A DNA stretch of 64,000 nucleotides from a virus, in the IMG/VR virus record IMGVR_UViG_3300008267_000007, positions 1 through 64,000 of that record; one strand, given 5' to 3'. Position numbers and translations under genes: made by a program. Positions 7,480 to 49,320 of this stretch are shown one piece after another (position 1 is the stretch's first letter; each line of letters begins with the position of its first letter). A model generated the notes under the pieces. The model was not told the DNA's origin. It saw nothing but the letters and a program-made list of their open reading frames with translations, and did no database searches.

Positions 7480-8094
7480 ATGAATTTATTAGTACAAAAA
7501 CAACAAGAATTAATTAATCTTTTAACAAACCAAGTTGCGGACTTAACTATGATGTCAAAAATCGAGTTAGGAGATGATGTAATTGAAGAACTACAAAAAA
7601 TTAATGGTCAGATAGAGAGCCTTAAAACCTCAGTACCCTTTATTGATGAAGTAGAGATATTTAATGCCACAATGGGTAAACCAAATAACTATGAACCTAC
7701 TATCCCAGACTATAAAGAATGGAAATTTGTATATGACTTCATCCTTGAAGAACTTGAAGAATATAGAGAAGCTTGCGAAGCAGGAGACATCGTTGAAATT
7801 TTGGATGCTTTGTGTGATATTACTTATGTTGCCACTGGGAACGGTGCTATGTTACATGGCCTTAAGGATAAGATATGGCCAGCATATCAAGAAGTACAAG
7901 CTTCAAATATGTCAAAAGCTTGCAGAAATGAAGAAGAAGCTAAAGCTACTGTCATTAAGAGAAGCGTCGAGCAAAATGAAAAATGCCATTACGAAAAAGT
8001 TGGAGACTATTATATCGTCTATAGAAGCCGAGATAAGAAAGTAATGAAGAATGTAAACTACTTTAAACCAAATCTAAAACAATTTTTTAATTAA
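7480..8094 (+). CDS. MazG-like / PRA-PH all-alpha NTP pyrophosphohydrolase
   Basis: EELEEY...EILDALCDITYV...SNMSK...KVMK pattern. Confidence 0.85.
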   Translation: MNLLVQKQQELINLLTNQVADLTMMSKIELGDDVIEELQKINGQIESLKTSVPFIDEVEIFNATMGKPNNYEPTIPDYKEWKFVYDFILEELEEYREACEAGDIVEILDALCDITYVATGNGAMLHGLKDKIWPAYQEVQASNMSKACRNEEEAKATVIKRSVEQNEKCHYEKVGDYYIVYRSRDKKVMKNVNYFKPNLKQFFN

Positions 8095-8614: not shown

Positions 8615-10345
8615 ATGAGTTATAAAAATATTACAACAACATCCTTAGGTAAAAATCGTCATCAAATCACATTATGGACTGATGATGGGGTTGAGCAGTA
8701 TGAATTTCAAAATTATGCTTATGAGAAATGTTATGAAAAAGACTCAACTCATACTAGTTTAAAGGGTGAACCCCTAAAAAAGGTTACTTACTGGGAACGT
8801 GACAATCCTTTTATTCATTACCATGATATGCCTATACATCAAAAATTTTTAATTGATAAGTATGGCATTAATGATGAACCCTCAACTTCACATAAAGAAA
8901 TATTCTTTGATATTGAGATTGAAATGGGAGGAGCACTTACCCCAGAATATATAAAAAGAGCACCTAAACCCGTTACCTCAATTGCTTGGTGGTATAAGCA
9001 AGAAGATAAATGGTATATCTTAATTTTAGATAAAGAAGGTAAAATCCCATCATCAACTGTGGGGAATAAACAAATAATCTCAGTCCCCAATGAAAGGGAA
9101 TTATTAACTAAATGGTTAAATTATCTAAATAAAATCCAACCTGATATATTAATTGGGTATAATAGTGATTATTTTGATATACCTTACCTATATTGGAGAA
9201 TGTACCATCAATTAGGTGAGCGTAAAGCTAATTCATTTTCTCCTATAGGTAAAATAAAAGAACCATCATTTCAGGGTACAGATGGGAATACTATATTCGA
9301 CCCAGATCAACCTATTAGAATTGAGGGTTTATATTCTTTAGATTATATTCGTTTACATAAAAAGTATTCTATGTCTGATGAACCGTCTTATAAATTAGAT
9401 GCTTTAGGTGAAAAATATTGTAAATTAGGTAAAATTGAATACGATGGTAGTTTAGATAGGTTATTTGAAACCGATAAAGAAAAATTTATTGAATATAACT
9501 TTCGTGATGTTGAAATCTTAAAAGCTCTAGATGCCAAATTTAATTATATTGGTCTAACTAAAAACTTGGCACATAAAGGTAAAATCCATTATGATGATGT
9601 ATATCAATCATCTAAAATCCATGATGGTGCTATTTCAGCATATCTGTTAAGTGAAGGTATAGTTCCACCTTCAAGAGATAGAAACTTAATGAGCAAGAAA
9701 AATTATGCTGGTGGTTACTTATTCTGCCCTAAAGCTGGGTTATACCGCTACATGTTTGATGAGGATTTAACTTCATTATACCCTTCAATTATCATGTCTC
9801 TTAATATTGGAAAAGAAACATTAGTTGGTAGAATACTGGATTTCAATGATAGGAATAATAGATTAGGTTTAAATGATTTACAAGCAGATGAAGAAGACCA
9901 ACTACGAAATATGGAATGGTTTACTAACCAAAACAAATTCAACAAAATTGATTGGACAAGCTCAAAATTAGTTAAACTACTCACTCAATATAATTTGGCT
10001 ATATCAGCAAATGGTGTTATATTCCGAACTGATACCCCATCTGTATTATCTACAATTTTAGCAAAATGGTTTGAAGAAAGGGTTTTATACAAGAATCTAA
10101 TGAAAAAAGCATATAAAGCTGGAGACGTAGTAGGTGGTGAAAAATATCATTTAATGCAATATACCATGAAAATCTTGCTAAATTCGCTATATGGAGCTAC
10201 AGCTTTACCTACATTTAGATATGGAAATGTAATTTTATCTGAGGCTATTACATTAAGTGGTCAACGTATCATTCAAGAATCAGCACTTTGTGCTAATAGA
10301 CATATGAACAAAGTTATTCGTAATGAAATTAAATTAGAAATATAA
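8615..10345 (+). CDS. family B DNA polymerase, N-terminal part (3'-5' exonuclease, motifs A and B)
   Basis: FDIEI (Exo I), GYNSDYFD (Exo II), YNFRDV (Exo III), DLTSLYPSII (motif A), KILLNSLYG (motif B). Confidence 0.93.
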   Translation: MSYKNITTTSLGKNRHQITLWTDDGVEQYEFQNYAYEKCYEKDSTHTSLKGEPLKKVTYWERDNPFIHYHDMPIHQKFLIDKYGINDEPSTSHKEIFFDIEIEMGGALTPEYIKRAPKPVTSIAWWYKQEDKWYILILDKEGKIPSSTVGNKQIISVPNERELLTKWLNYLNKIQPDILIGYNSDYFDIPYLYWRMYHQLGERKANSFSPIGKIKEPSFQGTDGNTIFDPDQPIRIEGLYSLDYIRLHKKYSMSDEPSYKLDALGEKYCKLGKIEYDGSLDRLFETDKEKFIEYNFRDVEILKALDAKFNYIGLTKNLAHKGKIHYDDVYQSSKIHDGAISAYLLSEGIVPPSRDRNLMSKKNYAGGYLFCPKAGLYRYMFDEDLTSLYPSIIMSLNIGKETLVGRILDFNDRNNRLGLNDLQADEEDQLRNMEWFTNQNKFNKIDWTSSKLVKLLTQYNLAISANGVIFRTDTPSVLSTILAKWFEERVLYKNLMKKAYKAGDVVGGEKYHLMQYTMKILLNSLYGATALPTFRYGNVILSEAITLSGQRIIQESALCANRHMNKVIRNEIKLEI

Positions 10346-10608
10346 TGGCGTTAAAGGGACAATCAATTAGAAATGGGGTTACTATTACTCAAGATGGTAA
10401 AAAAGTAGAAAAACAAGTAATTCTTGATGAAAGTGTGAATTGGGTTGAATCTCAAGAAAATTTCTTCAAAAAAATGCTTAAGCAAGGAGGTAAGTGTAAG
10501 ATAAATGGCCATTTATATGAAATATTTCTTAAAGAGAGAACAGACATAGACTCAAAAGGGAATAGACCCGTTAATTTACCACCAGTTCCAGGAGAAAGAA
10601 CATTTTAA
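10345..10608 (+). CDS. hypothetical protein inserted between the two polymerase parts
   Basis: 87-aa ORF with TAATG overlap at its 5' end, ending 1 nt before the next ATG. Confidence 0.7.
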   Translation: MALKGQSIRNGVTITQDGKKVEKQVILDESVNWVESQENFFKKMLKQGGKCKINGHLYEIFLKERTDIDSKGNRPVNLPPVPGERTF

Positions 10609-10609
10609 T

Positions 10610-11545
10610 ATGAAACATTTAGAAGATACCCCATGGTGGATTTGCGATGAAGGTGATTTTAACTTCTGTGCTTATGTTGACACAGATTCCAATTATTTTA
10701 ATGCTGAGCCTTTATTATTACACCTTTATCCTGATTTTGAAACTAAAACTGATCAAGAAAAAGATGATATATTAGAAAAAGTGGCTCTTAAGTATCAAGA
10801 CATTATAACAGAATATTATAATACATTAGCTAAAGAAGCTTTTAATGTCCCAACTCATAGGCTTGAAATGAAAACTGAAGCTGTTATACGTTCTGCTTAT
10901 TTTAGAGCGACTCGTAGATATGCTCAATGGATTACTAAAAAAGAGGGTAGGCCTATAGAAGAACTTGATATTAAGGGATTAGAATTCAAAAAAGCTAACT
11001 TCCCTAAATATTTTGGAACATTTTATCAAAGTATATTAGAATTAATTATTAAAGGTACTCCTCAATCTATTATTGATAAACAAATATCAGATTTTAGAAA
11101 TGAAGCGACCTCACCTAATGTAGATTTTTGTTTAATAGGTAATCCAACATCTGTTAAGGTGTTAAATGATTATGTTGAATCTATTCCTAAACCTGGTAAA
11201 ATATTATCTATTCTTAAAAAAGGTGCAGGTGCAAATGTTAAAGCTGCTACTTGCTATAATGATTTACTAAGATTTTGGAATTTAGATAAAGATTATAGTC
11301 AAATTGTACAAGGTGATAAAATTAAATGGGTATATTTAAAAGATAACCCATATAAAATGGAAGCAATCGCATTCATGGAGTTTGATATGCCAGATAAAAT
11401 TAGAGATTTTATTAACGAGTACATTGATAGAGATAAAAGTTTTCAAACTATATTACAAAACAAATTACAAGGGTTTTATGATGACCTAGAATGGTCTTTA
11501 CCCCCTGCTAACCCACTTATTTATAAATTCTTTACATTCGGATAA
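10610..11545 (+). CDS. family B DNA polymerase, C-terminal part (motif C, thumb)
   Basis: YVDTDS catalytic motif, RRYA, IKGLE, GDKIKWVY. Confidence 0.92.
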   Translation: MKHLEDTPWWICDEGDFNFCAYVDTDSNYFNAEPLLLHLYPDFETKTDQEKDDILEKVALKYQDIITEYYNTLAKEAFNVPTHRLEMKTEAVIRSAYFRATRRYAQWITKKEGRPIEELDIKGLEFKKANFPKYFGTFYQSILELIIKGTPQSIIDKQISDFRNEATSPNVDFCLIGNPTSVKVLNDYVESIPKPGKILSILKKGAGANVKAATCYNDLLRFWNLDKDYSQIVQGDKIKWVYLKDNPYKMEAIAFMEFDMPDKIRDFINEYIDRDKSFQTILQNKLQGFYDDLEWSLPPANPLIYKFFTFG

Positions 11546-11547: not shown

Positions 11548-12270
11548 ATGGACAAAAAGTTATTAGTACAAACCATAGATAGTTTTTATTTAAATGGTCT
11601 AACCTCACAAGTAAAGCTTAAAGTGAAAGACAATCAAGTTCACGTTAAGTTTGCTACAGATAATAAAGACTGTATAGGTGAAATCACAGCCCCAATTGAG
11701 TTAGAGGATTGCGAAATAGGAATATACAATACGGGACAACTTCTTAAATTATTAGGAATTACCAATGATTATATTGATCTTAAACTTGCTAAGCAAGGAA
11801 ATCATTTTTTACGTTTAAATATCAGTGATAATCAATTTGATTTGGTTTATAACCTAAGCGATTTGGGGTTAATTCAAGATCCAAGTGTTATATCAAATTT
11901 ACCACCACATGACTTAGAATTTAATATTAATTTTGAATTTTGCCAAAAACTTATTAAGGCCCATAATGCTCTTGATAAACCTCCAAGACTCGAGATTGGA
12001 ATTACTAAAGATTTTCAAGACCAAGATGTTATTGGTTTTATTATAGGAGAAAAATCATCATATTCTAATAAAGTAAATTTCTCGGAACCAGGTACTATTA
12101 CTAACACAATAAAACCTATCCCATTTAGTGCTTTAAATCTTAGAGAAATAGTATCCGTTAATAAAAATGCTAAAGGTAAAGCATATATTTTTAAAGATGG
12201 TCTAATGAAAATCCAATTAGAAGAAGATGGAATTCAATCAGAATATTATCTTGTTGCTTTCTCTGAATAA
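11548..12270 (+). CDS. sliding clamp (T4 gp45/PCNA-like)
   Basis: 240 aa, GIYNTGQLLKLL motif, terminal EYYLVA, between polymerase and clamp loader. Confidence 0.75.
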   Translation: MDKKLLVQTIDSFYLNGLTSQVKLKVKDNQVHVKFATDNKDCIGEITAPIELEDCEIGIYNTGQLLKLLGITNDYIDLKLAKQGNHFLRLNISDNQFDLVYNLSDLGLIQDPSVISNLPPHDLEFNINFEFCQKLIKAHNALDKPPRLEIGITKDFQDQDVIGFIIGEKSSYSNKVNFSEPGTITNTIKPIPFSALNLREIVSVNKNAKGKAYIFKDGLMKIQLEEDGIQSEYYLVAFSE

Positions 12271-12320: not shown

Positions 12321-12617
12321 ATGGCAAATCCACAATTCAAAGGTCGTCAAAAAGGCGATATTAAAAGTAAAACACTTATTGAAGATCCACTATTAGGTGA
12401 TTTTAAAATTAGTATAGATGATAATTGTTATAATTTGATTTATACTGACCCAAAAACTAAAAGTGAAAAAACTACAGGTTATTTTACTAATTTATCTAAT
12501 GCTTTATTTTCAATTTGTAAACAACAAGCTTTAGATACTCCCAATTATACTCTAAAAGAGTATGCTAAACAAATAGAAACAAATTTTAACACATTAACAA
12601 ATTCAATTAAACTATGA
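12321..12617 (+). CDS. hypothetical protein
   Basis: ORF track. Confidence 0.65.
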   Translation: MANPQFKGRQKGDIKSKTLIEDPLLGDFKISIDDNCYNLIYTDPKTKSEKTTGYFTNLSNALFSICKQQALDTPNYTLKEYAKQIETNFNTLTNSIKL

Positions 12618-12907
12618 GTAAATTAAAACCTAGAATGGGCCAAATTGTCCTAAAACCTCTAGAAGAATCAGAAATGATGGTAGGTAATATTATTATCCCA
12701 GATGTTGGTAATGAAAAAACACTTACAGCTACAATTGTTGCAGTATCTGATGTTTACAACTATCATAGAGGTGAGTTAATACCTACAGATTTAGAAGTAG
12801 GTATGAAAGTTGTAGTACCACCAATGGGTGTACAAAAACATAAATTAAATAATGAAGAATATCTTATTACTTCACAAGAAAACATTTTATCAATTATTGA
12901 AGATTAA
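12614..12907 (+). CDS. groES: co-chaperonin GroES
   Basis: LKP...IVLK, GNIIIPD mobile loop, VVAV-like strand, ENILSII; directly before groEL. Confidence 0.88.
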   Translation: MSKLKPRMGQIVLKPLEESEMMVGNIIIPDVGNEKTLTATIVAVSDVYNYHRGELIPTDLEVGMKVVVPPMGVQKHKLNNEEYLITSQENILSIIED

Positions 12908-12909
12908 TT

Positions 12910-14547
12910 ATGACAGAAACATCATTCGGAACAGAATTAAAAAGTAAATTACTATCAGGAGTTAAAAAGTTAAATGATAGTGTATCATCTACCTTAGGAC
13001 CTGCAGGTAGAACGGTATTAATCAAAGGTGAATATGGCCAGTTAACAGTAACTAAAGACGGTGTATCTGTTGCAAAGGCCTTTAAAGAATTAGAAGATCC
13101 AATTGAATCAACTGGGGCTGAATTAGTACAAAAAGTATCAATTAAATCTGCTAATGAGGTTGGAGATGGTACAACTACAAGTACTTTATTAACATATGCT
13201 ATTTTAGAAGAAGGTCTAAAACATGTTAATGCGGGCCAAAATGCAGTTGAAATTAAAAAAGGTATTGATGCTGCCGTAGAGGAATTAAAAGTAGCTCTTA
13301 ATAACTTGACAGAAGATATTTCCGATAATCAACAAATTAAAGAAGTTGCTACTATTTCTGGTAACAATGATGAAGAAATTGGAAACCTAATTGCTACTGC
13401 TTTAGAAAAAGTAGGTAGAGATGGAGTTGTAGCTATTGAAGAATCTAAATCAGGTGAAACGTCATTAGAAATTGTTGAAGGTATGCAATTTGACAGAGGT
13501 TATAAATCACCTTATTTTGTTACTGATAACAATACAATGACTGCTACATTAGATAATCCTTACATCTTAATCTATAACGGTAGAATTGGCAATGTAAATG
13601 AGTTAGTAAACGCTTTAACAATAGCGAATTCAGAAACTAAATCATTATTGATTGTTGCAGAAGATATTGATGGAGAAGCATTAGCAGTAACAATTGTTAA
13701 TAAAATGAGAGGTGTTGTAAATGTTGTGGCCGTTAAAGCACCAGATTTTGGAGATCGTAGAACAATGGCTTTAGAAGATTTAGCTATTATTACAGGTGGT
13801 CAAGTATTATCTAAAGACAAAGGTCATAAGTTAGATAAAATTGATGTTGCTACTTTAAAACAATGTATGGGTACAGCTCGTACTGCTACAATTGGTAAAG
13901 ATAAAACCACTATTGTAGATGGTAAGGGTGAAGAAGAAGTAATCACAGCTAGAGCAGCTGAAATTAAAACCCAAATTGATAATGCTAGTTCATCATTTGA
14001 AAAAGAGAAATTACAAGAACGTTTAGGTAAACTAATTGGGGGAGTAGCTATCATTAATGTAGGTGGTAATAGTGAATTAGAAATTAGAGAGAAAAAAGAT
14101 AGAGTAGAAGATGCTTTATTTGCTACAAAAGCTGCTTTAGAAGAAGGTATTGTAGTAGGTGGTGGAACTGCTTTATTATATGCTAGAAAATCAATTACTT
14201 TTGAAGGATCAAATGATTTTGTTTTAGGTAAGAAAATAGTTTACAGAGCTGTAGCTTCACCATTCCAAAAAATCCTAACTAACGCTGGTCATGATATTGT
14301 AGAAGTACAATACCTGGGTTCTAAATTAACTGACTCTGATAAAGGAAGTAATTGGGCTGGTCTTAACTATAAAGATTTATCAACTATTGATTTTAAAGAA
14401 GCTGGTATTATTGATCCTAAAAAAGTAACTCGTATTGCTTTGGAAAATGCAGCGTCAGTTGCAGGTACTATTTTAACAACAGAATCTGTAATTTACGAAA
14501 GGAAAGAAGATAAAGAAGAACAAAATCCACAACAAGGGATGATGTAA
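12910..14547 (+). CDS. groEL: chaperonin GroEL
   Basis: [51 protein letters not shown]. Confidence 0.98.
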
Positions 14548-35862: not shown

Positions 35863-36114
35863 ATGAAAACAGTATTGAAATACGGAGGTACCTGGTGCGG
35901 ACCTTGCAAAGTTTATGCTCCTAAATTTGAACAAATTAAAAATGAAATGAACGGTATAAAATTTGAATCCATAGATGTTGATTCAGGTGATCCAAGAATA
36001 TTGGAGCATGGGATTAGAAACGTTCCAACTACAGTAGTAATTGATGAGAAAGGAAACGTTCGTAAGCAAACTGGGGTGATGAATGTAGATCAATTGAGAG
36101 CATTTATTGGATAA
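35863..36114 (+). CDS. thioredoxin
   Basis: WCGPC, VPT. Confidence 0.92.
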   Translation: MKTVLKYGGTWCGPCKVYAPKFEQIKNEMNGIKFESIDVDSGDPRILEHGIRNVPTTVVIDEKGNVRKQTGVMNVDQLRAFIG

Positions 36115-36137
36115 AATAAAATTTATATATACAAATT

Positions 36138-36173
36138 AGGCTCCCTTTGGGAGCCTTCGTATATTTAAGTATA
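36138..36173 (+). promoter_or_regulatory. hairpin fused to promoter motif (start of promoter array)
   Basis: AGGCTCCC-TTT-GGGAGCCT runs directly into TTCGTATATTTAAGTATA. Confidence 0.75.
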
Positions 36174-36193
36174 GAAATGGAAAAATAAAAGTT

Positions 36194-36667
36194 ATGGTAG
36201 ATTTAAGAAATTGCAAGCCTGGTGACAAATTAATATCAAAACATGGTTTAGTATTAGAGTACGTACGTCCGTTACCTGAGGATGGTTATATGGATCATGA
36301 GGTAAGGTATCCTGACGAAGCTCCTTACAAAGGTAGTATAGGAACTAGAACTCACGAGGGATACGTGATGAGAAGGAAGAGACTTGAAGAGGATCATGAT
36401 ATTGTAAGAATAGTTAGTAGTGAAGTTATGAAAGTAGAAACACTTGAAGAAGCTGCTGAAAGTTATATACCACAGTCAAGTAGATGGACTTTGAAAGAAA
36501 TTTTTATTGATGGTGCTAAATGGCAACAAGAAAGAAGTTATAGTGAGGAAGATATGGAAAAAGCTATTAAATTTGGAGCTGATGGAATGTATGGTTGGCA
36601 AATGGGAGAAGAAGGATACTATGTTAATCAAGTAAAAAGATTTTTAGAAACATTTAAAAAGAAATAG
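36194..36667 (+). CDS. hypothetical two-module protein (C-terminal GAKWQQERSYSEE family)
   Basis: 41-bp identity with 582..622. Confidence 0.72.
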   Translation: MVDLRNCKPGDKLISKHGLVLEYVRPLPEDGYMDHEVRYPDEAPYKGSIGTRTHEGYVMRRKRLEEDHDIVRIVSSEVMKVETLEEAAESYIPQSSRWTLKEIFIDGAKWQQERSYSEEDMEKAIKFGADGMYGWQMGEEGYYVNQVKRFLETFKKK

Positions 36668-36671
36668 TACT

Positions 36672-36863
36672 ATGGACTTTAGAACAGAACTATCAAAATG
36701 GGGTTACAATAAAGGTGACTCAATTGATGTTGATATATTGGTTAATGAAATACTACCAAGTTTATTTTCTCAACAAGAGAAAATATGTGATTCAGAAGTG
36801 ATCCAAAGAATTAGAGCAAGTAAGTCTGACGCAGAAGCCAGAAGAATTATTAGAACAATTTAA
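36672..36863 (+). CDS. hypothetical protein
   Basis: ORF track. Confidence 0.6.
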   Translation: MDFRTELSKWGYNKGDSIDVDILVNEILPSLFSQQEKICDSEVIQRIRASKSDAEARRIIRTI

Positions 36864-36876
36864 AAAGAAATAAGTT

Positions 36877-37068
36877 ATGACAGTAGGAGAAATAATGCAA
36901 GCCTTAATTATGGCTGAGGATTACAACAAAGTAAGAGTAAATGTATCTGATGAATTTATTAATATGGCTAAGGCTATGTTAGGGGATTTTGTATACATTA
37001 AGGAAAAAGAAGAAAAGTACCAGAAGGTGGTACAAGTTCTTGCAGACGCCGGAATTAAATTAAAATAA
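36877..37068 (+). CDS. hypothetical protein
   Basis: Paralog of 985..1236. Confidence 0.65.
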   Translation: MTVGEIMQALIMAEDYNKVRVNVSDEFINMAKAMLGDFVYIKEKEEKYQKVVQVLADAGIKLK

Positions 37069-37071
37069 AGC

Positions 37072-37368
37072 ATGGGAAAAGAAACATTATCAGATTTCAT
37101 TAGAAGGATCTATTTAGAGAGGGCATCAGAGATGCCAGCACTTAGTGCTATGGACTTTGAAGATGCAATCTATTTAGGAGTACAATGGCAGAAGGATCAA
37201 ACCGAGATGGAGGCTAAGGAACTAATTAAACAGTACACAGCTAATCTCAATAGAGTAGAAGTTATAGATTATAGTAAAGGGGGAAGAGCATACACCAACT
37301 ATAGTGTGAGGGGTGTTCAAATATCATTTCAGGATAAAGGAGAGACATTAAAAGTGTTTGTAAAATAA
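37072..37368 (+). CDS. hypothetical protein
   Basis: ORF track. Confidence 0.65.
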   Translation: MGKETLSDFIRRIYLERASEMPALSAMDFEDAIYLGVQWQKDQTEMEAKELIKQYTANLNRVEVIDYSKGGRAYTNYSVRGVQISFQDKGETLKVFVK

Positions 37369-37377
37369 TTATAAATT

Positions 37378-37644
37378 ATGGAGAAAACCGGAAATACTGA
37401 ATCGTTAAAGTATGATTTTAATACTGCTTCAAATTTAGAGGTTTTTATGCCTAATTTAGATGGTTGGTATAGAGTTACTTCAAGGGAATTTAGATCATTT
37501 AATGGTAAACGACGTATCAATAGTGAACCATATAGTGGTAAAACATACTATTATGCTACAAATAGAATTGCAGACTTGTCTATATCAGAACCCGATAAAA
37601 TAGTAGAACATAATTGGAAAAGTGTTAGGAGACCTGGTGATTAA
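37378..37644 (+). CDS. hypothetical protein
   Basis: ORF track. Confidence 0.65.
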   Translation: MEKTGNTESLKYDFNTASNLEVFMPNLDGWYRVTSREFRSFNGKRRINSEPYSGKTYYYATNRIADLSISEPDKIVEHNWKSVRRPGD

Positions 37645-37866
37645 TTCGTATATTTAAGTATTAATAATAAAAACGGAGGTTATGAAAATTATTTACATGG
37701 AATGTACTTTAGCTCTACTTGCAGGTATTAACCCAATTATGGTTGAAGAATTATCTAAACAGGGTAAATTGAAACAAAATGAAATTACAAGGTATTTAGT
37801 AATTGAAGATTAGGTTTATTAAAATAGATTTCGTATATTCAAGTATAATAAGTAAAAATAAAAGTT

Positions 37867-38481
37867 ATGGAAGTAAAAATTTACAGAGAACCAGAAAATG
37901 AGTCTCTAATTTTAGATGAAGTTCAATTAGCAGAGTACAATTCAATAGCTCTAGAGCTTGGTCTCGCTACACATGAAAATGTAGAAGCCGAAAATGTACC
38001 TAATGTTTATATCAGTCTTAATACCGCTATGGAGAAACAGCTTAAAGCTATTTGTCCTATGAAAGTAGATGCTGCTGAATATAAAAAGTCAACTATCCCA
38101 TTGGAGGTACTGAAAGTATATAAATTCTGTAAAGACAATAATATGTTTGATGGGTATCATATTTGGTATAATGATGTTGATCCTGATCCAATGTTAATAG
38201 GTTGGAATTGGAAATCAGAAAATGACAAGAAAAACAATTACACATGGTGTATAAACAGGTTCTTAATTGCTCGTTGGGGAGATTGTGCATTAGAACTTCC
38301 TGAATTACTTGAATTAGGTTTTCAAAAAATGAAACAAGAAGTATTAGACAAAGCACAGTCTGCAATAGATAAATGTAATGCAGTTTTATCTAATCCAGAC
38401 CTTCACATTAGAAAGATATTAAGTAATACAACTGATTCGGATATTACATTACAAATTAACTCATCAGGAACAATTTATTAA
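37867..38481 (+). CDS. hypothetical protein
   Basis: Promoter motif at 37830; DPMLIG...ARWG. Confidence 0.75.
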   Translation: MEVKIYREPENESLILDEVQLAEYNSIALELGLATHENVEAENVPNVYISLNTAMEKQLKAICPMKVDAAEYKKSTIPLEVLKVYKFCKDNNMFDGYHIWYNDVDPDPMLIGWNWKSENDKKNNYTWCINRFLIARWGDCALELPELLELGFQKMKQEVLDKAQSAIDKCNAVLSNPDLHIRKILSNTTDSDITLQINSSGTIY

Positions 38482-38482
38482 A

Positions 38483-38677
38483 ATGGAAAAATTAGGAGTA
38501 TTTTTAGGGGCAATTGGGGTATTAATATTAACAGCGGTATTATTAGCTTTGCCTGTACAATGGCTTTGGAATGAATGCTTAGTAGGGGCAGTAGAGGGAG
38601 TTCATGAAATTAGATTTTGGCAGGCCTTAGGAATTACATTTTTGTTCAACATGTTGTTTAAACCAAATAATAAATAA
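38483..38677 (+). CDS. small two-TM membrane protein
   Basis: WLWN...FWQALG hydrophobic pattern. Confidence 0.7.
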   Translation: MEKLGVFLGAIGVLILTAVLLALPVQWLWNECLVGAVEGVHEIRFWQALGITFLFNMLFKPNNK

Positions 38678-38680
38678 GAT

Positions 38681-38863
38681 ATGACAGGAAATTATTATCA
38701 AGTAGTATTAAAAACAGGTAAAACTCACCCTTCACTTTATGTTAACATTCAAACTGCTATTAAAAAGGTAGGAGCAGAAAATATAAAGCAGATTAAGGAA
38801 ATTAGAAGAGAATTAGTGGACACTAAATACACTGAGATTGTTGGTACAGTAAATATAGATTAA
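38681..38863 (+). CDS. hypothetical protein
   Basis: ORF track. Confidence 0.55.
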   Translation: MTGNYYQVVLKTGKTHPSLYVNIQTAIKKVGAENIKQIKEIRRELVDTKYTEIVGTVNID

Positions 38864-39088
38864 TTTGGCTTTATAATTTTTAATTCGTATATTCAAGTAT
38901 TAATAATTAAAAACAATAAAGGTTATGATTTACTATGAAGGGTATAAGATATCATTAAATGATTATAATTATGATAATGGCTTACATACTAAATATGTAT
39001 TTTACAACATAGATAACAGTGATGATCCACATTTACATGGTACAGGGATGAGTGTTGAAGATTGTGAAAAACAAATAGACGAACTAAT

Positions 39089-40216
39089 ATGGTAAAAGTA
39101 TTCCCAACATTATATAAACGTTCTAATAGTAAAGAACATATCAATCAATGGCAAATTGAAGTTGATGGAGATAGTTTTAGAACCACAACTGGATTTGTTA
39201 ATATGAAGCAATTCACTGGTGACTGGACTAAATGTGAGCCTAAAAATATAGGTAAAAAGAATTCTACAACTTCTGAAGAGCAAGCGTTATTTGAAGCCAA
39301 TGCTATGTTTACTAAACGTAAAGATTTAGGTTATTGGGAAGATATTAATAATTGTGATAAGAAGGTGTTTTTTACACCAATGTTAGCACAAGATTATGAT
39401 AAACGTAAAGATAAGGTTAAATTTCCAATCCTATCACAACCTAAACTAGATGGTATTAGATGTGTAGTCAAATCTGATGGGATGTGGACTAGAAATGGTA
39501 AAGAAATTATATCTGCACCTCATGTGTATGAAAATTTAAAGCATATATTTGATTTACAACCTGACCTAGTATTAGACGGTGAATTGTATACTTCAAATAA
39601 GGACGTTGATTTTAACACTATTATTTCATGTGTTAGAAAAACTAAACCAACACAAGCTGATTTGGATTTGTCTGCTCAATATATTGAGTATTGGATGTAT
39701 GATATGTTAGATCCTAATGAAGTTGATTATGGTTATGAAGGGAGATGTGAAAATTTATTTGATTTAAAACGAGAATTTAATTTAGACCCGTTTATTTATA
39801 AAGTAATTGCAACTTATGAATTACCTGATGCTAAACAGGTAAATGAACAGTTAAGTCATTATATTGAACAAGGGTTTGAAGGTCAAATATTAAGAGACCC
39901 AAATTCATTATATGAAAATAAACGTTCCAATGGTTTATTAAAACATAAAACATTCCATGATGATGAGTTTAAGATATTATCAGTTAATGAAGGAGTAGGT
40001 AAATTTGCTAACAAAGCCGCTACTATGTCATTCCAAACACCAGAAGGAGTTAAATTTGACTCAACTATTAATGGTACAATGGAGTATTTAGAAGAAATAT
40101 GGGCCATTAAGGATCAATTAATAGGTAAGTTAGCAACTGTTAAGTATTTTGAAAAAACAACTGATGGTTCATTAAGATTTCCTAAAGTTATTCAAATAGA
40201 TCGTTTGGATATGTAA
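39089..40216 (+). CDS. ATP-dependent DNA ligase
   Basis: PMLA, KLDGIR (motif I), LDGELY, EGQILR, LLKHK, SLRFP. Confidence 0.93.
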   Translation: MVKVFPTLYKRSNSKEHINQWQIEVDGDSFRTTTGFVNMKQFTGDWTKCEPKNIGKKNSTTSEEQALFEANAMFTKRKDLGYWEDINNCDKKVFFTPMLAQDYDKRKDKVKFPILSQPKLDGIRCVVKSDGMWTRNGKEIISAPHVYENLKHIFDLQPDLVLDGELYTSNKDVDFNTIISCVRKTKPTQADLDLSAQYIEYWMYDMLDPNEVDYGYEGRCENLFDLKREFNLDPFIYKVIATYELPDAKQVNEQLSHYIEQGFEGQILRDPNSLYENKRSNGLLKHKTFHDDEFKILSVNEGVGKFANKAATMSFQTPEGVKFDSTINGTMEYLEEIWAIKDQLIGKLATVKYFEKTTDGSLRFPKVIQIDRLDM

Positions 40217-40339
40217 AATATATTTCGTATATTTAAGTGTTAAAAAGATATGATATGAAAAATTTAAAAGACTTTAGTTTAGCAATGTTATTATGGTTAG
40301 CATTTTATTTAGGAGCAATGCTGCTAATGTAATTAAAAT

Positions 40340-40429
40340 AGTCAGGTGGTGAAATGGTAAACACATGGTAGGCACTGTCCCCATATAGGTGAGAAACCTT
40401 GACTACAGGTTCGAGTCCTGTCCTGACAA
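40340..40429 (+). ncRNA. tRNA-like RNA 1 (type II body, non-canonical anticodon arm)
   Basis: GTCAGG/CCTGAC acceptor, GTG-AAATGGTAAA-CAC D-arm, AGGT-GAGAA-ACCT variable arm, ACAGG-TTCGAGT-CCTGT T-arm. Confidence 0.75.
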
Positions 40430-40438
40430 CAAATACAA

Positions 40439-40560
40439 GGTTCCTGAGATAAAGGATTAACTTAGCACTAACTAACTAAATACTTAAACTCCAGCATAAA
40501 GGTTTGCGACCCCAGTTAGTGATGGTGGTGGAAAGATAGGTTCAACTCCTGTAGGGACTA
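40439..40560 (+). ncRNA. tRNA-like RNA 2 (acceptor + T-arm, long insert in place of anticodon arm)
   Basis: GGTTCCT/AGGGACT acceptor, ATAGG-TTCAACT-CCTGT T-arm, CACTAACT/AGTTAGTG stem. Confidence 0.65.
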
Positions 40561-40569
40561 CTAAATAAA

Positions 40570-40651
40570 ACTCTATAAGATGTTATTGTCTCTAGTCTAG
40601 AATAGATTCAATGATACGATTCGTAGCTCCAAGGGTAGTGGCTTATAGAGT
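40570..40651 (+). ncRNA. putative structured RNA
   Basis: ACTCTATAAG/CTTATAGAGT 10-bp closing stem with internal hairpins. Confidence 0.4.
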
Positions 40652-40658
40652 ACCTGGA

Positions 40659-40734
40659 GATCAAGTAAGTTAAAAAGGTATAACATTCTGTCGAAAGGCA
40701 GAAAGGGTTGCAGGTTCGAATCCTGTCTTGGTTG
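40659..40734 (+). ncRNA. tRNA-like RNA 3 (anticodon arm capped by GAAA tetraloop, or an 8-nt loop)
   Basis: GATCAAG/CTTGGTT acceptor, GTTA/TAAC D-stem, TTCTGTC-GAAA-GGCAGAA, GCAGG-TTCGAAT-CCTGT. Confidence 0.75.
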
Positions 40735-40737
40735 CAA

Positions 40738-40799
40738 AAATAAAGAGAACCGTTATCTGCACCTTCGAGGTAGTAGAGAGCAGACGTCATACTTTATTT
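40738..40799 (+). ncRNA. putative structured RNA
   Basis: AAATAAAG/CTTTATTT closing stem, TCTGC/GCAGA, ACCT-TCG-AGGT. Confidence 0.4.
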
Positions 40800-40804
40800 A
40801 AATT

Positions 40805-40873
40805 TATTGTGTAGTCTCAGTGGTGGAGCTAGTCAAAATAAGACTGCAGTAGGTTCGATTCCTACCACAATAT
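40805..40873 (+). ncRNA. tRNA-like RNA 4 (loop AAAATAA, no U33, very short variable region)
   Basis: TATTGTG/CACAATA acceptor, CTC/GAG D-stem, TAGTC/GACTG stem, GTAGG-TTCGATT-CCTAC. Confidence 0.72.
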
Positions 40874-41045
40874 CAAAGAAATTAATTTAAAACCCAACAA
40901 AAATGAGTAAAAATAGTGCGAAGAAGAATTACCAATCATTAATTGAGTGGTTACCAACTTTAAATCAACCTAAAGTTAAGAAAGAGTTATCAACAACGAA
41001 ATTTTCCAAAGCGGATCATTATAAACAAAACGGAGTGAAATAATT

Positions 41046-41210
41046 ATGACAAGACGACAACAACTTATTAAAGAGGTAAAGGGACTAAACATCAAAACTA
41101 TTAGACCCGCGCATATGTGTACAACAGAGTATTTAGAATCAATAGTAAGTACTCCTAAAGCAGAGAAAGTAAGTTTTTTTAAAAGATTTCTACAGGGTGT
41201 TGGATTTTAA
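41046..41210 (+). CDS. 54-aa protein homologous to the N-terminus of the AT-hook protein
   Basis: Read by hand: MTRRQQLIKEVKGLNIKTIRPAHMCTTEYLESIV... Confidence 0.65.
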   Translation: MTRRQQLIKEVKGLNIKTIRPAHMCTTEYLESIVSTPKAEKVSFFKRFLQGVGF

Positions 41211-41349
41211 GTAACTTTTCGTATATTTAGGTATAATAATTAGATATATGAAAAAAGTACAATTCACAATGCAAGAAATTTGGGCAGCGTCACGACACAT
41301 TGTTCAAAAGAATAAGAAAAAGTATAATCGTAAAGAAAAGCATAATAGA

Positions 41350-41371
41350 AAGGACCCTAATAAGGGTCCTT
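41350..41371 (+). terminator. hairpin/terminator
   Basis: AAGGACCCT-AATA-AGGGTCCTT then ATTT. Confidence 0.6.
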
Positions 41372-41452
41372 ATTTAGTTTGTTAATAAGGGTTTTGAGAA
41401 GTATAATAAATTTCGTATATTTAAGTATTATTAATTTAAAACAACAAAGGTT

Positions 41453-42253
41453 ATGAAAAGTTTAAAAGCATTATCAAAAGAAGAATTACAATCATTAGCT
41501 CCTTCAGTTTTCAACCACACAATTAAACAAGGTTTGACTGATAAGTATGTTCACATCCCTACTGACACAATTGTTGAAGACATGGAAGCCTTAGGTTGGT
41601 TTCCATACGAAGTTAAAACAGTTCGCTCCAGAACCAAAAATGCTGCTACTAAAAAGCATTTAATTCAGTTTTTTAACCCTGATATTGTAATCAATAATGA
41701 AGCAGGTGAAGCTGATATGTACCCAGCATTACTTTTAATTAATTCTCATGATGGTTCAACAGCTGTTAGGTTTGAAATGGGAGTATTTAGAATGGTTTGT
41801 TCAAATGGTTTGGTTATTAAATCTCAAGATTTTGGAGGATTTAAAATGAAACATATGGGGTATTCATTTGAGGATTTACGTAATTATATTAGTGAATTAG
41901 TAAATACCTTACCAATAGTTGTTGAAAATCTTAACAAATTTTCTCAATTTGAAATGACACCTGAAGAACAATACACTTTTGCTGTTAAAGCGGTTGAAGC
42001 AAGATTTGGCGAAGAAAAACAATTACCTGAATGTGAAATCAACAATTTACTAACTGCTGATAGAAAAGAAGATGAAGGTAATTCAGTTTGGGTGGTTTTG
42101 AATAGAGTTCAAGAAAAATTAACAAATGGTGGTTTTGGTTACCTAAATGTTAAAGGTAAGCCAAGAAAAGCAAGAGCTGTTAAAAATTTCACACAAGACT
42201 TGTCAATGAACCAAAAATTGTGGGAATTAGCTGAGGAATTTATTGCATCATAA
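41453..42253 (+). CDS. DUF932/DUF945 family protein
   Basis: APSVF, LINSHDGS, GVFRMVCSNGLV, W..LNRVQE. Confidence 0.85.
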   Translation: MKSLKALSKEELQSLAPSVFNHTIKQGLTDKYVHIPTDTIVEDMEALGWFPYEVKTVRSRTKNAATKKHLIQFFNPDIVINNEAGEADMYPALLLINSHDGSTAVRFEMGVFRMVCSNGLVIKSQDFGGFKMKHMGYSFEDLRNYISELVNTLPIVVENLNKFSQFEMTPEEQYTFAVKAVEARFGEEKQLPECEINNLLTADRKEDEGNSVWVVLNRVQEKLTNGGFGYLNVKGKPRKARAVKNFTQDLSMNQKLWELAEEFIAS

Positions 42254-42332
42254 TTGAAATTTAATAAAAGGAAGGGGATCTACGGATCTCCTTTCGTATA
42301 TTACAGTATATTAATAAAAAATATAAAGGGTT

Positions 42333-42731
42333 ATGAGTAGAATAGCGGTTCAATTCAAAGATAAACCAGACATAGTAATTTATAAAATTGTTGGTTTTAC
42401 AAAAGATAAACATGACATATTAATGGAAAATGTTAAGGATTTTCTTAAACACCCATTAATTGAATCATATGAGATGATTGAAGATAAACACAAGGCAGGC
42501 CATAATGAAGGTGGAAGTAAAAACTATGAATCCAAATATGAAAGGGAAAATAATAAATTACCTAAAGCAATCGCTAAGGAGGTAATTCAAGTAGCTACTT
42601 CATTAAAGGGTTGTACTAAAGACACTATTGATCGATGGAACACACATTTAGATTTTGACTTAAATGAAAAATTAAATGGTAAGTATGGATTTACTGGTGC
42701 TAAAAGATTATATAATATATTTGGCTTGTAA
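42333..42731 (+). CDS. hypothetical protein
   Basis: Own promoter motif at 42293, preceded by a hairpin. Confidence 0.7.
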   Translation: MSRIAVQFKDKPDIVIYKIVGFTKDKHDILMENVKDFLKHPLIESYEMIEDKHKAGHNEGGSKNYESKYERENNKLPKAIAKEVIQVATSLKGCTKDTIDRWNTHLDFDLNEKLNGKYGFTGAKRLYNIFGL

Positions 42732-42787
42732 ATTTTAAATTCGTATATTTAAGTATTAATAAGATAAATAATTAAAAAATAAAGGTT

Positions 42788-43525
42788 ATGAAAAATTTAG
42801 AAGAACAAAAAGCAATCGTTTTAGTAAGAAAAGAAGAATTAGAAAACAAAAGAGCTGAAATTTATGTTAGAGAGAAAGCTGCAATGGGAGAAACTATAGG
42901 AAGCTTCTTCAAAACATTCCCTCAAGATGTAGAGATTACAGTAAGTAGTGGTTCAGTTTATTTCAAAATAGATCATCCAGATTACTCTTACAAAAAGGAA
43001 TTATTTAATTTATATTTAAGAGAGAATTGGAGTGAGGATGGAAGAGCTTACAATGGGGTTGATTTGTCTTATTATACAACTTCGACAAAAGGAATGGATA
43101 GTTGGGAATTGAAAAGGTTACAATTGTTAGGTAAGTTAGCTGAAATTGTTTTTGAAGATCAAGAAAAGATAGTTGATGCTGCAAACAATACTGCAAATGA
43201 GTTTAAAGAAGAATATAAAGAGGTTTATGCTGAATTACAAATTGTAGGAAAAGAGTTAGGGGAGATAAATGAAAAGATAAAGGTAATTAAAGATCATGAA
43301 ACTGAGATTAAATTACGTAGTGAAGAAGGAGTAATGTTTGATAAGGAGGTACATATTGAATTAAAAAGAAATTACACTGCTAGAATTGCTAAAATCAAAA
43401 TAGTTGAAATTAAAGGTAAAACTTGTACAGTTGCAATTGAAACAAATAATAATTATAAAACAACAGAATCAAGAGTAAATGTTGAAAATCTTATTAGACA
43501 AGTTAAGTATCATAGTGCATTGTAA
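42788..43525 (+). CDS. hypothetical coiled-coil protein
   Basis: Own promoter motif at 42740. Confidence 0.75.
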   Translation: MKNLEEQKAIVLVRKEELENKRAEIYVREKAAMGETIGSFFKTFPQDVEITVSSGSVYFKIDHPDYSYKKELFNLYLRENWSEDGRAYNGVDLSYYTTSTKGMDSWELKRLQLLGKLAEIVFEDQEKIVDAANNTANEFKEEYKEVYAELQIVGKELGEINEKIKVIKDHETEIKLRSEEGVMFDKEVHIELKRNYTARIAKIKIVEIKGKTCTVAIETNNNYKTTESRVNVENLIRQVKYHSAL

Positions 43526-43588
43526 TTAAAGGAAGGGGATTTTATATCCCCTTTTCGTATATTTAAGTATAATTGAAAAATAAATGTT

Positions 43589-43792
43589 ATGGAAAGTAAA
43601 GTAAATGAATTAAGAAATGCAATAGGTAAAGAATTTAGTGATAATCATTCTAATACCTTACGTTCAGTTTTATTAAGTGTTTCCAAATGTGGTAACGTTT
43701 GTTATACAATGAGTGTAGATTCTTATGATAAAAAAGGAGGTAAAATAAGTAAACAACCTAGTTGGTTAACTTGGAATGCTATGTTTTATTAA
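43589..43792 (+). CDS. hypothetical protein
   Basis: Own promoter motif at 43554. Confidence 0.7.
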   Translation: MESKVNELRNAIGKEFSDNHSNTLRSVLLSVSKCGNVCYTMSVDSYDKKGGKISKQPSWLTWNAMFY

Positions 43793-44028
43793 AGGAATTT
43801 GAGATTATAAATGAATTTCGTATATTTAAGTATTAATAATTTAAAACAATAAAGGTTATGTCACACCCATCAAATCAGGAATTTTTAGAATATTGGACGG
43901 AATTTTATATGAATCAAGGAATTGATTTAGAAAGAGCAATTGAGTTAGCTGAGAAGGAATTGAATGGTTGGGATTAAGTTCGTATATTTAAGTATAAGAA
44001 AAATTAATAATTTAAAACAATAAAGGTT

Positions 44029-44340
44029 ATGGCAACTAAAACAGAAAAAAGTACAAATGGAACTTCATTTCATGATGTAACAATTAAAGCAAGTGCTCAA
44101 GATTTAATTAATGTATTTGGTGAACCAACTATTCAGGATAATACAGGTGAAGATAAAGTTAATATGGAGTGGTGCATGGAAACTGAAAGTGGAGATGTAT
44201 TTGCAATATATGATTGGAAGTATTATAGAAAATTAGAATTAGATGAAATTGTTGAGTGGCACGTAGGAGCTCATTCAAGAAGTATTTCAGGTGAAGCTCA
44301 ATACGAAGTGATGAGGGAGTTAGGTAATTATGTTGAGTAA
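44029..44340 (+). CDS. hypothetical protein
   Basis: Own promoter motif; FGEP...IYDWK...WHVG. Confidence 0.75.
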   Translation: MATKTEKSTNGTSFHDVTIKASAQDLINVFGEPTIQDNTGEDKVNMEWCMETESGDVFAIYDWKYYRKLELDEIVEWHVGAHSRSISGEAQYEVMRELGNYVE

Positions 44341-44650: not shown

Positions 44651-44707
44651 TTCAAATTTCGTATATTTAAGATGTAAGAAAGATAAATAATTAAAACAAC
44701 AAATGTT

Positions 44708-45061: not shown

Positions 45062-45123
45062 AAAAGTTGCTTACTAAAATAAAATTCGTATATTTAAGTA
45101 TTATAAATTTAAAAATAAAGGTT

Positions 45124-45309: not shown

Positions 45310-45373
45310 AAAAGTTGTTTAGTATTAAAATCTTTCGTATATTTAAGTATTAATAATAAAATAAATAAAAGTT

Positions 45374-45640: not shown

Positions 45641-45692
45641 TTTAGAAAATAAAATTTCGTATATTTAAGTATAATTTAAATAATAAAAGAAA

Positions 45693-46359: not shown

Positions 46360-46422
46360 ATAAGGAATTTGATTAATAAATAATAGTTCGTATATTTAAG
46401 TATAATAATAAAAATAAAAGTT

Positions 46423-49309: not shown

Positions 49310-49320
49310 GTAATGTGGAG

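What the first reader, a model, noticed from the sequence alone, without database searches (positions are those of the whole stretch)
8615..11545. Family B DNA polymerase split between motifs B and C by a small gene, with both halves in the same frame
Seen: part 1 ends ...NEIKLEI* after motif B and part 2 begins MKHLEDTPWW...YVDTDS. Both are in the same reading frame. TTAGAA (Leu-Glu) occurs in frame at both junctions (10334-10339 and 10619-10624), so removing the 285 nt between them gives a seamless ...NEIKLEDTPWW... polymerase. The 87-aa intervening ORF is translationally coupled on both sides. No intein or group I/II intron hallmarks are visible. Established: two-subunit PolB enzymes exist in some T4-like phages and archaea. 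Inference: a self-punctuating insertion with a target-site duplication produced a two- or three-subunit enzyme. Splicing, excision or ribosome bypass are less likely alternatives, and the 6-bp match could be chance in AT-rich DNA.
Basis: partly seen in the sequence, partly recalled or inferred. Interest (0 to 1): 0.7.

Follow-up and report, generated by a model that had tools for sequence, protein, structure and literature searches.

The report
Clade-wide split phage DNA polymerase
The replicative family B DNA polymerase of this uncultured aquatic phage is truly encoded as two genes with a small conserved gene of unknown function between them, an old trait shared by every relative fetched (about 170 contigs), but the proposed target-site duplication is a chance repeat.

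Summary
In detail: PolB N-part (8615-10345), an 87-aa ORF (10345-10608) and PolB C-part (10610-11545), joined by TAATG and TAA-T-ATG.

- **Duplication refuted.** The nearest unsplit homolog (P0075, 851 aa) is colinear with part 1 plus part 2, with no residue gained or lost. It already has an internal Met-Lys-x-Leu-Glu-Asp where part 2 starts. The ancestral junction is therefore ...KLEI-MKHLED..., not KLEDTPWW. TTAGAA occurs 162 times in the window and is not conserved in close relatives.
- **Split is old.** All about 170 related contigs fetched have it. The gap ranges from -4 nt (ATGA overlap, no insert) to 2214 nt, and the two frames are often different, which excludes splicing or bypass.
- **The gap carries cargo.** It holds 19 gene families, including HNH and GIY-YIG homing endonucleases and sugar-metabolism genes.
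- **The 87-aa gene.** It has no known family or fold and is under purifying selection (dN/dS about 0.2). In viral contigs it was found only in this slot. It is about as old as the split but was lost at least three times, so it is dispensable.
- **New break site.** The break lies between motifs B and C, unlike the Aeromonas gp43A/B and PhiKZ splits.

First readers of this scan noted the same arrangement in eight other windows.

The parts
8615..10345 (+). PolB N-part (576 aa): N-terminal domain, 3'-5' exonuclease (Exo I-III), palm motif A (DLTSLYPS), fingers motif B (KILLNSLYG), and the palm helix that follows it
   Evidence: aligns to RB69 gp43 up to about residue 611. The motifs are invariant in 35 relatives. 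dN/dS is 0.07-0.16.
10343..10347 (+). TAATG stop/start overlap between the N-part and the 87-aa gene
   Evidence: The same geometry is seen throughout the window's subgroup; other subgroups use TTATGA.
10345..10608 (+). 87-aa conserved gene of unknown function ('mid'). The core is predicted as hairpin, two helices, hairpin, followed by a lower-confidence C-terminal tail ending ...PGERTF.
   Evidence: No Pfam or PHROG match. The family has 138 clusters at 50% identity. dN/dS is 0.15-0.25. All 80 best viral loci lie between the two polymerase halves. AF2 mean pLDDT is 77 with no fold match.
10606..10612 (+). TAA-T-ATG junction between the 87-aa gene and the PolB C-part
10610..11545 (+). PolB C-part (311 aa): strand with motif C (YVDTDS, D24/D26), RRYA motif, thumb, and C-terminal aromatic tail (YKFFTFG)
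   Evidence: PHROG 262 positions 565-844; D24, T25, D26 and S27 are invariant; dN/dS 0.07-0.12.
10334..10339 (+). First TTAGAA (Leu-Glu of ...KLEI*): a chance repeat, not a target-site duplication
10619..10624 (+). Second TTAGAA (Leu-Glu of MKHLED): ancestral polymerase codons, also present as LED in the unsplit homolog
11548..12270 (+). Sliding-clamp-like gene directly downstream (context; same replication module)
   Evidence: phrog_223, DNA polymerase processivity factor, E 6.8e-9. There is no terminator-like site between 8000 and 12700.

Best explanation
This is a heritable, clade-wide split of the phage's replicative family B DNA polymerase. The break lies in an expanded surface loop of the palm, between the helix after motif B and the strand that carries motif C.

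The N-part (exonuclease, motifs A and B) and the C-part (motif C, thumb, C-terminal tail) are translated as separate chains from one transcript. They are coupled by overlapping stop and start codons and must assemble non-covalently into one active site, with the two catalytic aspartate motifs on different chains.

The C-part starts at a methionine that was already an internal residue of the unsplit ancestor, and no residue was lost or gained. The intergenic slot created by the break has since become a hotspot for inserted genes. The first and most persistent occupant is the 87-aa gene. It is a selected protein of unknown fold that entered at, or very near, the time of the split and may have caused it. 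It is not required to keep the split polymerase, because several lineages have lost it. Later occupants include HNH and GIY-YIG homing endonucleases and sugar or nucleotide-sugar metabolism genes.

Shown: the anatomy, colinearity with an unsplit homolog, age, selection, cargo diversity and loss of the 87-aa gene. Inferred: heterodimer assembly (by analogy with phage 25 gp43A/B and PhiKZ), translational coupling, and what the 87-aa protein does.
For: - Anatomy and motifs.
- All related loci are split. The gap runs from -4 to 2214 nt and the frames are the same or different.
- The unsplit P0075/L165 is colinear. Part 1 residue 571 maps to L165 nt 4569. Five codons follow, then part 2 residue 1 maps to nt 4585, which is a Met.
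- In the trees the split rows form one group (SH-aLRT 83) sister to P0075. The 87-aa gene is in all major subgroups (64 of 75 unique loci), and the loci without it are nested.
- The tree of the 87-aa gene recovers the same four subgroups as the polymerase tree.
- dN/dS is 0.15-0.25 for the 87-aa gene and 0.07-0.16 for the halves.
- Lineages without the gene keep all motifs and have dN/dS 0.08-0.20. Four such records, 52-74% complete, hold no copy elsewhere.
- The slot holds 19 gene families in 24 architectures, including HNH and GIY-YIG endonucleases. A homing-endonuclease footprint is seen in the closest relatives.
- No terminator-like site or repeated promoter-leader lies inside 8615-11545.
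- Precedent for active two-chain PolB enzymes: PMC2988022 (phage 25 gp43A/B co-purify and are active) and PMC13648687 (PhiKZ 1:1 complex).
Against: - No biochemical or expression data exist for this clade, so heterodimer formation is inferred.
- The order of events on the stem branch cannot be resolved: either the split came first and the 87-aa gene was captured, or its insertion made the split.
- Monophyly of the split rows relative to P0075 has only moderate support (SH-aLRT 83-89; unresolved in FastTree). P0075 sits on a long branch and could in principle be a secondary re-fusion.
- The conservation of the 87-aa gene, its fixed position right after the N-part and its conserved C-terminal tail would also fit a real role with the polymerase.
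Confidence: 0.8

Rival explanations
1. One reading: a self-punctuating element inserted with a 6-bp target-site duplication (TTAGAA). Removing the 285 nt between the copies would restore the ancestral ...NEIKLEDTPWW... polymerase.
For: The two in-frame TTAGAA copies are real. The 87-aa gene is about as old as the split.
Against: - The nearest unsplit homolog keeps all residues of both halves, including I-M-K-x before LED. The proposed excision would make the loop 6 residues too short.
- The first hexamer is CTAGAT, TTAGAT or TTAGAG in close relatives, and is absent where the N-part ends ...KL*.
- The hexamer occurs 162 times in the window, including once inside the 'insert'.
Confidence: 0.03
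2. The 87-aa protein is a functional partner of the split polymerase: a third subunit, an assembly or clamp-like accessory, or a regulator of the C-part's translation.
For: - In viral contigs it was found only in this slot, nearly always directly after the N-part.
- It diverges at a rate close to that of the polymerase between distant subgroups (52-61% against 58-61% identity).
- It is under purifying selection.
- Its C-terminal tail...NLPPVPGERTF or ...RF, is conserved across distant subgroups. This recalls the C-terminal aromatic docking tails of replisome proteins, a comparison made from my own knowledge and not tested.
Against: - It was lost in at least three nested lineages with no copy elsewhere in the records held, while both halves stay intact and selected.
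- It is often separated from the C-part by 0.3-2 kb of unrelated genes.
- A mid-like core also occurs inside an unrelated sigma-like protein.
Confidence: 0.2
3. One contiguous polymerase is still made, by RNA splicing, protein splicing, ribosomal bypass or frameshifting across the gap.
For: The halves share a frame in this window. Matched GAA codons could be read as take-off and landing sites.
Against: - No intron family matches.
- The gap is coding and under purifying selection.
- Colinearity leaves no room for intein halves.
- Gap length (-4 to 2214 nt) and relative frame vary among relatives.
- A 285-nt hop would be several times the 50 nt of T4 gene 60 (own knowledge).
Confidence: 0.02
4. 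The split arose first, by a small mutation that placed a stop next to the pre-existing internal Met (as in the ATGA-overlap loci). The 87-aa gene is only the earliest cargo captured by the new intergenic site, perhaps delivered by a homing endonuclease that was later lost.
For: - Insert-free loci with a 4-nt ATGA overlap exist in several subgroups.
- The site is still visited by HNH and GIY-YIG endonucleases, and endonuclease footprints remain.
- The 87-aa cassette is exchanged between close relatives.
- A published gene-breaking model has free-standing endonucleases invading genes (PMC2677866).
Against: Parsimony on the polymerase tree puts the 87-aa gene at the base of the split clade and makes the insert-free loci derived. 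No similarity was found between the 87-aa protein and the endonucleases in the slot.
Confidence: 0.35

Closest known systems
gp43A/gp43B split DNA polymerase of Aeromonas T4-like phages 25 and 44RR2.8t (Petrov, Ratnayaka and Karam 2010, as summarised in PMC2988022)
   Same: A phage replicative PolB encoded as two adjacent genes. The gap may hold a homing endonuclease or only untranslated sequence. The halves co-purify and are active.
   Different: The break site differs. In phage 25, gp43B starts about 45 residues upstream of motif B, in the fingers (L163). Here the break is about 50 residues downstream of motif B, before motif C. No small conserved gene and no metabolic cargo are annotated in the phage 25 gap. 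The polymerase here is only distantly related to those of named phages (27-37% identity for part 2).
PhiKZ (chimallivirus) DNAP-N/DNAP-C core polymerase (PMC13648687)
   Same: A B-family polymerase made of two chains with the catalytic aspartates of motifs A and C on different subunits, forming a stable 1:1 complex.
   Different: The PhiKZ break is just after motif A, inside a large palm-insertion domain. Its two genes (gp82 and gp50) carry widely separated gene numbers and it has an Rhc clamp-like third protein. Here the break is after motif B, the genes are adjacent, and the loop is short.
Fractured genes with split inteins and free-standing homing endonucleases in marine metagenomes (Dassa et al. 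2009, PMC2677866)
   Same: Essential replication genes broken in two with a small gene between the halves. The gene-breaking model includes endonuclease invasion of intein-less genes.
   Different: There are no intein halves here, since the two parts are colinear with the unsplit homolog. The resident gene has no endonuclease motif. The slot holds many unrelated genes.
Split PolB3 of Methanobacteriales (Kelman et al. 1999; discussed in PMC4104785) and split-intein PolB of Nanoarchaeum
   Same: A family B polymerase encoded by two genes.
   Different: These are archaeal and are thought to come from faulty intein excision or a split intein. The exact break site was not compared here.
mobE-split NrdA of Aeromonas phage Aeh1 (PMC3045599)
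   Same: An essential phage enzyme split by a mobile gene and reassembled from two chains.
   Different: A different enzyme. There the interaction domains derive from the mobile element; here no extra residues flank the break.

Membership tests
Family B DNA polymerase (T4/RB69 gp43 type) | Exo I-III motifs, motif A (DxxSLYPS), motif B (KxxxNSxYG) and motif C (DTD[S]) all present and conserved | tested here: met
   Pfam and PHROG matches. Alignment to RB69 gp43. The motifs are invariant in 35 relatives.
Aeromonas-type gp43A/gp43B split | Break in the fingers, upstream of motif B | tested here: not met
   Phage 25 gp43A is 498 aa, and gp43B begins about 45 residues before KILINSLYG. PHROGs 2062 and 1918 place that break near part 1 residue 500. 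Here the break follows residue 576, after motif B.
PhiKZ-type DNAP-N/DNAP-C split | Break after motif A, within a palm-insertion domain, with fingers and motif B on the C-subunit | tested here: not met
   PMC13648687, compared with motifs A and B both lying on the N-part here.
Intein or split intein ('fractured gene') | Extra intein sequence at the break (N-terminal Cys/Ser block, C-terminal His-Asn plus a nucleophile) | tested here: not met
   Part 1 plus part 2 is colinear with unsplit P0075/L165 with zero extra residues. PHROG 262 coverage is contiguous.
Group I/II intron | Ribozyme core in the intervening sequence | tested here: not met
   No Rfam match at E<=1 apart from a chance miRNA hit elsewhere. 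The 264-nt gap is a protein-coding gene with dN/dS about 0.2.
Programmed translational bypass (T4 gene 60 type) | Conserved take-off and landing codons, a short non-coding gap, and the same frame logic in relatives | tested here: not met
   The gap varies from -4 to 2214 nt and the relative frame varies too. The take-off hexamer is not conserved.
Transposon-like insertion with target-site duplication | A direct repeat flanks the insert, and an empty site has a single copy | tested here: not met
   The unsplit homolog and the insert-free relatives keep the residues on both sides. The hexamer is common in the window.
Free-standing homing endonuclease (for the 87-aa gene) | HNH, GIY-YIG, LAGLIDADG or similar catalytic motif | tested here: not met
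   No Pfam or PHROG match. The invariant residues are Q, I, K, W, K, M, Q, G, G, with no His, Cys, Asp or Glu. There is no profile similarity to the HNH or GIY-YIG genes of the same slot.

The most novel reading that the evidence does not exclude
The 87-aa gene is a small mobile coding module that invades loops or linkers of phage information-processing genes. In PolB it sits as a self-contained ORF that supplies the stop for the upstream half and hands translation on to a resident internal Met, so it created the split. In a sigma-70-like protein of another genome, its 73-codon core sits as a clean in-frame insertion (281 aa against 208 aa in 80-83% identical relatives). Alternatively, or in addition, it is a new accessory subunit of a two-chain replicative polymerase.
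Probability: 0.15. Interest if true: 0.75.

Novelty: new variant of a known kind. Interest (0 to 1): 0.5.

Why it matters
Split replicative polymerases are known from a few phages and archaea. Here the break is at a new position, between motifs B and C, so the two catalytic aspartate motifs sit on different chains. It is fixed across a large, abundant clade of uncultured aquatic phages.

The roughly 170 loci fetched capture many states of one site: insert-free, the 87-aa gene alone, endonuclease-bearing, endonuclease footprints, and up to five cargo genes. This is a natural series for studying how essential genes get broken and how a break turns into a hotspot for gene cargo. The site also shows where a family B polymerase tolerates backbone scission, which is useful for engineering split polymerases. 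Finally, it flags a widespread, selected 87-aa protein family with no known fold or function that lives almost only in this slot.

Tried and rejected
- **Complex prediction.** Complex prediction with N-part, C-part and the 87-aa protein as partner (alignments A2, A4, A3) gave 'no answer' (score 0.07, mark 0.32). This is no evidence either way.
- **Fold searches for the 87-aa protein.** Two AF2 models (pLDDT 67 and 77) were searched with Foldseek against PDB and BFVD and with VIA-align wide. Nothing was significant: best Z 3.6 and best E 0.13. Weak, repeated hints to NUMOD or I-HmuI-like DNA-binding modules were not confirmed.
- **Sequence searches for the 87-aa protein.** Pfam and PHROG on single sequences and on all 35 members found nothing. 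A PDB profile search gave YetF at E 0.1 as the best hit. The ESM Atlas gave no usable hit. tblastn against named phages gave nothing significant.
- **Profile comparisons.** hhalign of the 87-aa family against both polymerase halves and against the slot's HNH and GIY-YIG genes showed no relation.
- **Named phages.** blastn of the locus found no match.
- **Odd fused forms.** The fusions among the profile hits (P0162, P0167, P0179, P0197, P0231 and others) are singletons on contigs of 0.5-1.8 kb, so I treat them as likely chimeras.
- **Closed or missing resources.** Petrov et al. 2010 is not held; its content is cited through PMC2988022.
- **Sigma-like protein.** It was not found in the window's genome or in five relatives, nor in viral contigs.
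- **Shine-Dalgarno idea.** AGGAG at 10590-10594 lies 15 nt before the C-part's ATG. That spacing is too long to call it a ribosome-binding site, so termination-reinitiation coupling is the more likely reading (inference).
Full report
**1. The observation**

The ORF map and the sequence confirm the description.
- The first gene, 8615-10345, is 576 aa and ends ...NEIKLEI*.
- An 87-aa ORF occupies 10345-10608.
- The second polymerase gene, 10610-11545, is 311 aa and starts MKHLEDTPWW, with YVDTDS at residues 22-27.
- The junctions are TAATG and TAA-T-ATG.
- The two polymerase genes share a reading frame. TTAGAA occurs at 10334 and 10619.

Part 1 matches Pfam DNA_pol_B_exo1 and DNA_pol_B. On PHROG 262 (856 positions) part 1 covers 17-569 and part 2 covers 565-844, so no piece of the enzyme is missing. 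Part 1 residues 514-570 align to RB69 gp43 residues 555-611. This places the break in the loop between the palm helix after motif B and the strand bearing motif C. Rfam finds no intron. The window is part of a 111-kb IMG/VR virus record. The nearest named phage polymerase, that of Microcystis phage Mel-JY01, is unsplit and only 37% identical to part 2.

**2. Relatives**

A scan of viral contigs with part 2 gave 184 relatives, of which 80 were fetched. A scan with the 87-aa family gave 292, of which 80 were fetched. A scan with an unsplit homolog gave 24 more.
- In every locus close enough to the window (51-95% identity) the polymerase is split at the same point.
- The gap is highly variable. 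It is -4 nt where the two halves overlap as ATGA with nothing between them (L027, L033, L053, L069 and others). It is 259-264 nt with the 87-aa gene alone, and reaches 2214 nt with five genes.
- The relative frame of the halves is 'same' in some loci and 'different' in others.

This rules out any mechanism that needs a conserved frame or distance, namely splicing, bypass or frameshift.

**3. The target-site duplication is refuted**

A search for longer proteins found unsplit relatives of 851-916 aa. In trees of the concatenated halves the split loci form one group (SH-aLRT 83) whose sister is the unsplit P0075/P0290 (SH-aLRT 89).

P0075 reads ...NRDMNREIGNKEMTIQMKDLEDVPEYICNGDEGNYVAYCDTDS. The window reads ...NRHMNKVIRNEIKLEI|MKHLEDTPWWICDEGDFNFCAYVDTDS. 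The two stretches have the same length with no gap. At the DNA level, part 1 residue 571 maps to L165 nt 4569, five codons follow, and part 2 residue 1 maps to nt 4585, which is a Met codon.

So the initiator Met and the following K-x-L-E-D are ancestral polymerase residues. The clean 'insert' is the stop codon plus the 87-aa gene (267 nt, 10343-10609).

The first TTAGAA is CTAGAT, TTAGAT or TTAGAG in relatives that are 80-95% identical. The hexamer occurs 162 times in the window, including at 10367 inside the 'insert'. The loop itself is about 20 residues longer than in RB69 or Mel-JY01, and this expansion is shared by the unsplit sister clades. It therefore preceded the split.

**4. The 87-aa gene**

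It has no Pfam, PHROG, PDB or Atlas match.
- A profile search of 1.84 billion representatives found 138 clusters, almost all proteins of 60-95 aa.
- All 80 best viral loci place it between the two polymerase halves. It usually sits directly after part 1, or after a homing endonuclease or a cupin gene.
- dN/dS is 0.15-0.25, about twice that of the halves.
- The residues invariant across 35 diverse members are Q6, I8, K23, W33, K43, M44, Q47, G48 and G49. There is no catalytic-type residue. A C-terminal tail...NLPPVPGERTF or ...RF, is conserved across distant subgroups.
- AF2 with 65 sequences gives a hairpin, two helices and a hairpin (pLDDT 83-86 in the core). No structural match reaches Z 4.
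- The gene is present in all major subgroups (64 of 75 unique loci), and its tree recovers the same four subgroups as the polymerase tree. It is therefore about as old as the split.
- It is absent from three or four nested lineages. These keep all motifs, have dN/dS 0.08-0.20 and, in four records that are 52-74% complete, have no copy elsewhere. So it is dispensable.
- Among close relatives the cassette is exchanged. The window's halves are 94-95% identical to L004 but its 87-aa gene only 75%, and that gene groups with L083 and L017 instead.

**5. The slot as a cargo site**

Across 75 unique loci the gap holds 19 gene families in 24 architectures.
- Endonucleases: an HNH endonuclease and two GIY-YIG endonucleases.
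- Sugar and nucleotide-sugar metabolism: an NAD-dependent epimerase, a dTDP-sugar epimerase-like cupin, a mannose-6-phosphate-isomerase-type cupin, a cytidylyltransferase and a glycosyltransferase.
- Other enzymes: a PLP-dependent enzyme, a DAHP-synthase-family enzyme and a transaldolase.
- Small or unknown: an Smr domain, DUF2452, DUF6165 and several families with no match.

Where the HNH gene is present, the last six residues of part 1 are replaced by a different tail. The window's closest relatives L003 and L007 keep that tail without the endonuclease, which is a footprint of past occupancy.

**6. Comparison with known splits**

- In Aeromonas phage 25, gp43A is 498 aa and gp43B starts about 45 residues before motif B. 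A GIY-YIG gene lies between them and a group I intron lies in 43B (PMC2988022).
- In PhiKZ the break follows motif A, inside a palm insertion (PMC13648687).
- The Methanobacteriales and Nanoarchaeum splits are linked to inteins (PMC4104785).
- The marine 'fractured genes' carry split inteins (PMC2677866).

The break described here, between motifs B and C, is a different and apparently independent event. I found no paper describing it. First readers of this scan noted the same arrangement in eight other windows.

**7. How it most likely works**

The three genes lie in one transcription unit. No terminator-like site, and no copy of the phage's repeated TTCGTATATT leader, lies inside it. Translation passes from gene to gene through overlapping or abutting stop and start codons. 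The two polymerase chains then assemble into one enzyme, as shown experimentally for the phage 25 and PhiKZ enzymes. That step is inferred here.

The role of the 87-aa protein stays open. My estimates for its function:
- about 0.2 that it is an accessory of the polymerase;
- about 0.15 that it is itself a mobile module;
- otherwise, that it is a long-resident passenger gene.

Whether its insertion created the split, or it was captured just after the split arose, is a separate question that the data do not resolve.

**8. A lead seen in passing**

A 73-codon core of the same family sits as a clean in-frame insertion in a sigma-70-region-2-like protein. That protein is 281 aa in L189 and 208 aa in L193 and L192, which are 80-83% identical outside the insert. 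The inserted copy nests, with weak support, among the 87-aa genes of one polymerase subgroup. This is the only robust second context. Other apparent fusions are singletons on very short contigs.

**9. Limits**

- The complex prediction gave no verdict.
- The trees are quick or FastTree searches with moderate support at the key node.
- All sequences are metagenomic and the host is unknown. One cluster member is labelled as a Candidatus Pelagibacter MAG contig, which is only a hint.

Noticed in passing
L189:2224-3066 versus L193:1270-1893 and L192:319-942: A 73-codon core of the 87-aa family is a clean in-frame insertion in a sigma-70-region-2-like protein (281 aa against 208 aa, 80-83% identical outside the insert). 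A-rich microhomology (TAAAA) flanks the insert. The 281-aa form has 20 cluster members and is seen on contigs up to 192 kb.
   Followed up: partly
L003:2850-3016, L007:4600-4766, L013:1430-1587 versus L010:3843-4736: Close relatives of the window carry an alternative 3' end of the N-part (..KFKEEF..SL*). In L010, L011, L012 and L026 this end precedes a 258-aa HNH endonuclease, so it looks like an endonuclease footprint. In L003 and L007 the spacer contains TTCGTATATT, the window's repeated promoter-like leader.
   Followed up: partly
window 10345-10608 versus L004:4736-4996: The 87-aa gene is only 75% identical between the window and L004, although the flanking polymerase halves are 94-95% identical. 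The window's copy groups with L083 and L017, which points to cassette exchange by recombination.
   Followed up: partly
window 36000-52200: TTCGTATATT occurs 36 times without a mismatch, all on the + strand, and 50 times with up to one mismatch (11 expected). Almost all copies lie between 32 and 52 kb, and none lies inside the polymerase locus.
   Followed up: no
window 12614-14547: GroES-like (97 aa) and GroEL-like (545 aa) genes lie just downstream of the replication module, as judged from the translations only.
   Followed up: no
window 7480-8094: A MazG/PRA-PH-like nucleotide pyrophosphohydrolase lies directly upstream of the polymerase (Pfam PF01503, E 8e-10; PHROG 671).
   Followed up: no
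cluster of window:8615-10342: One 576-aa member of the N-part's 90% cluster is deposited as a hypothetical protein of a Candidatus Pelagibacter sp. MAG (MDB4232176.1, 24-kb contig). This is either a mis-binned phage contig or a host hint.
   Followed up: no
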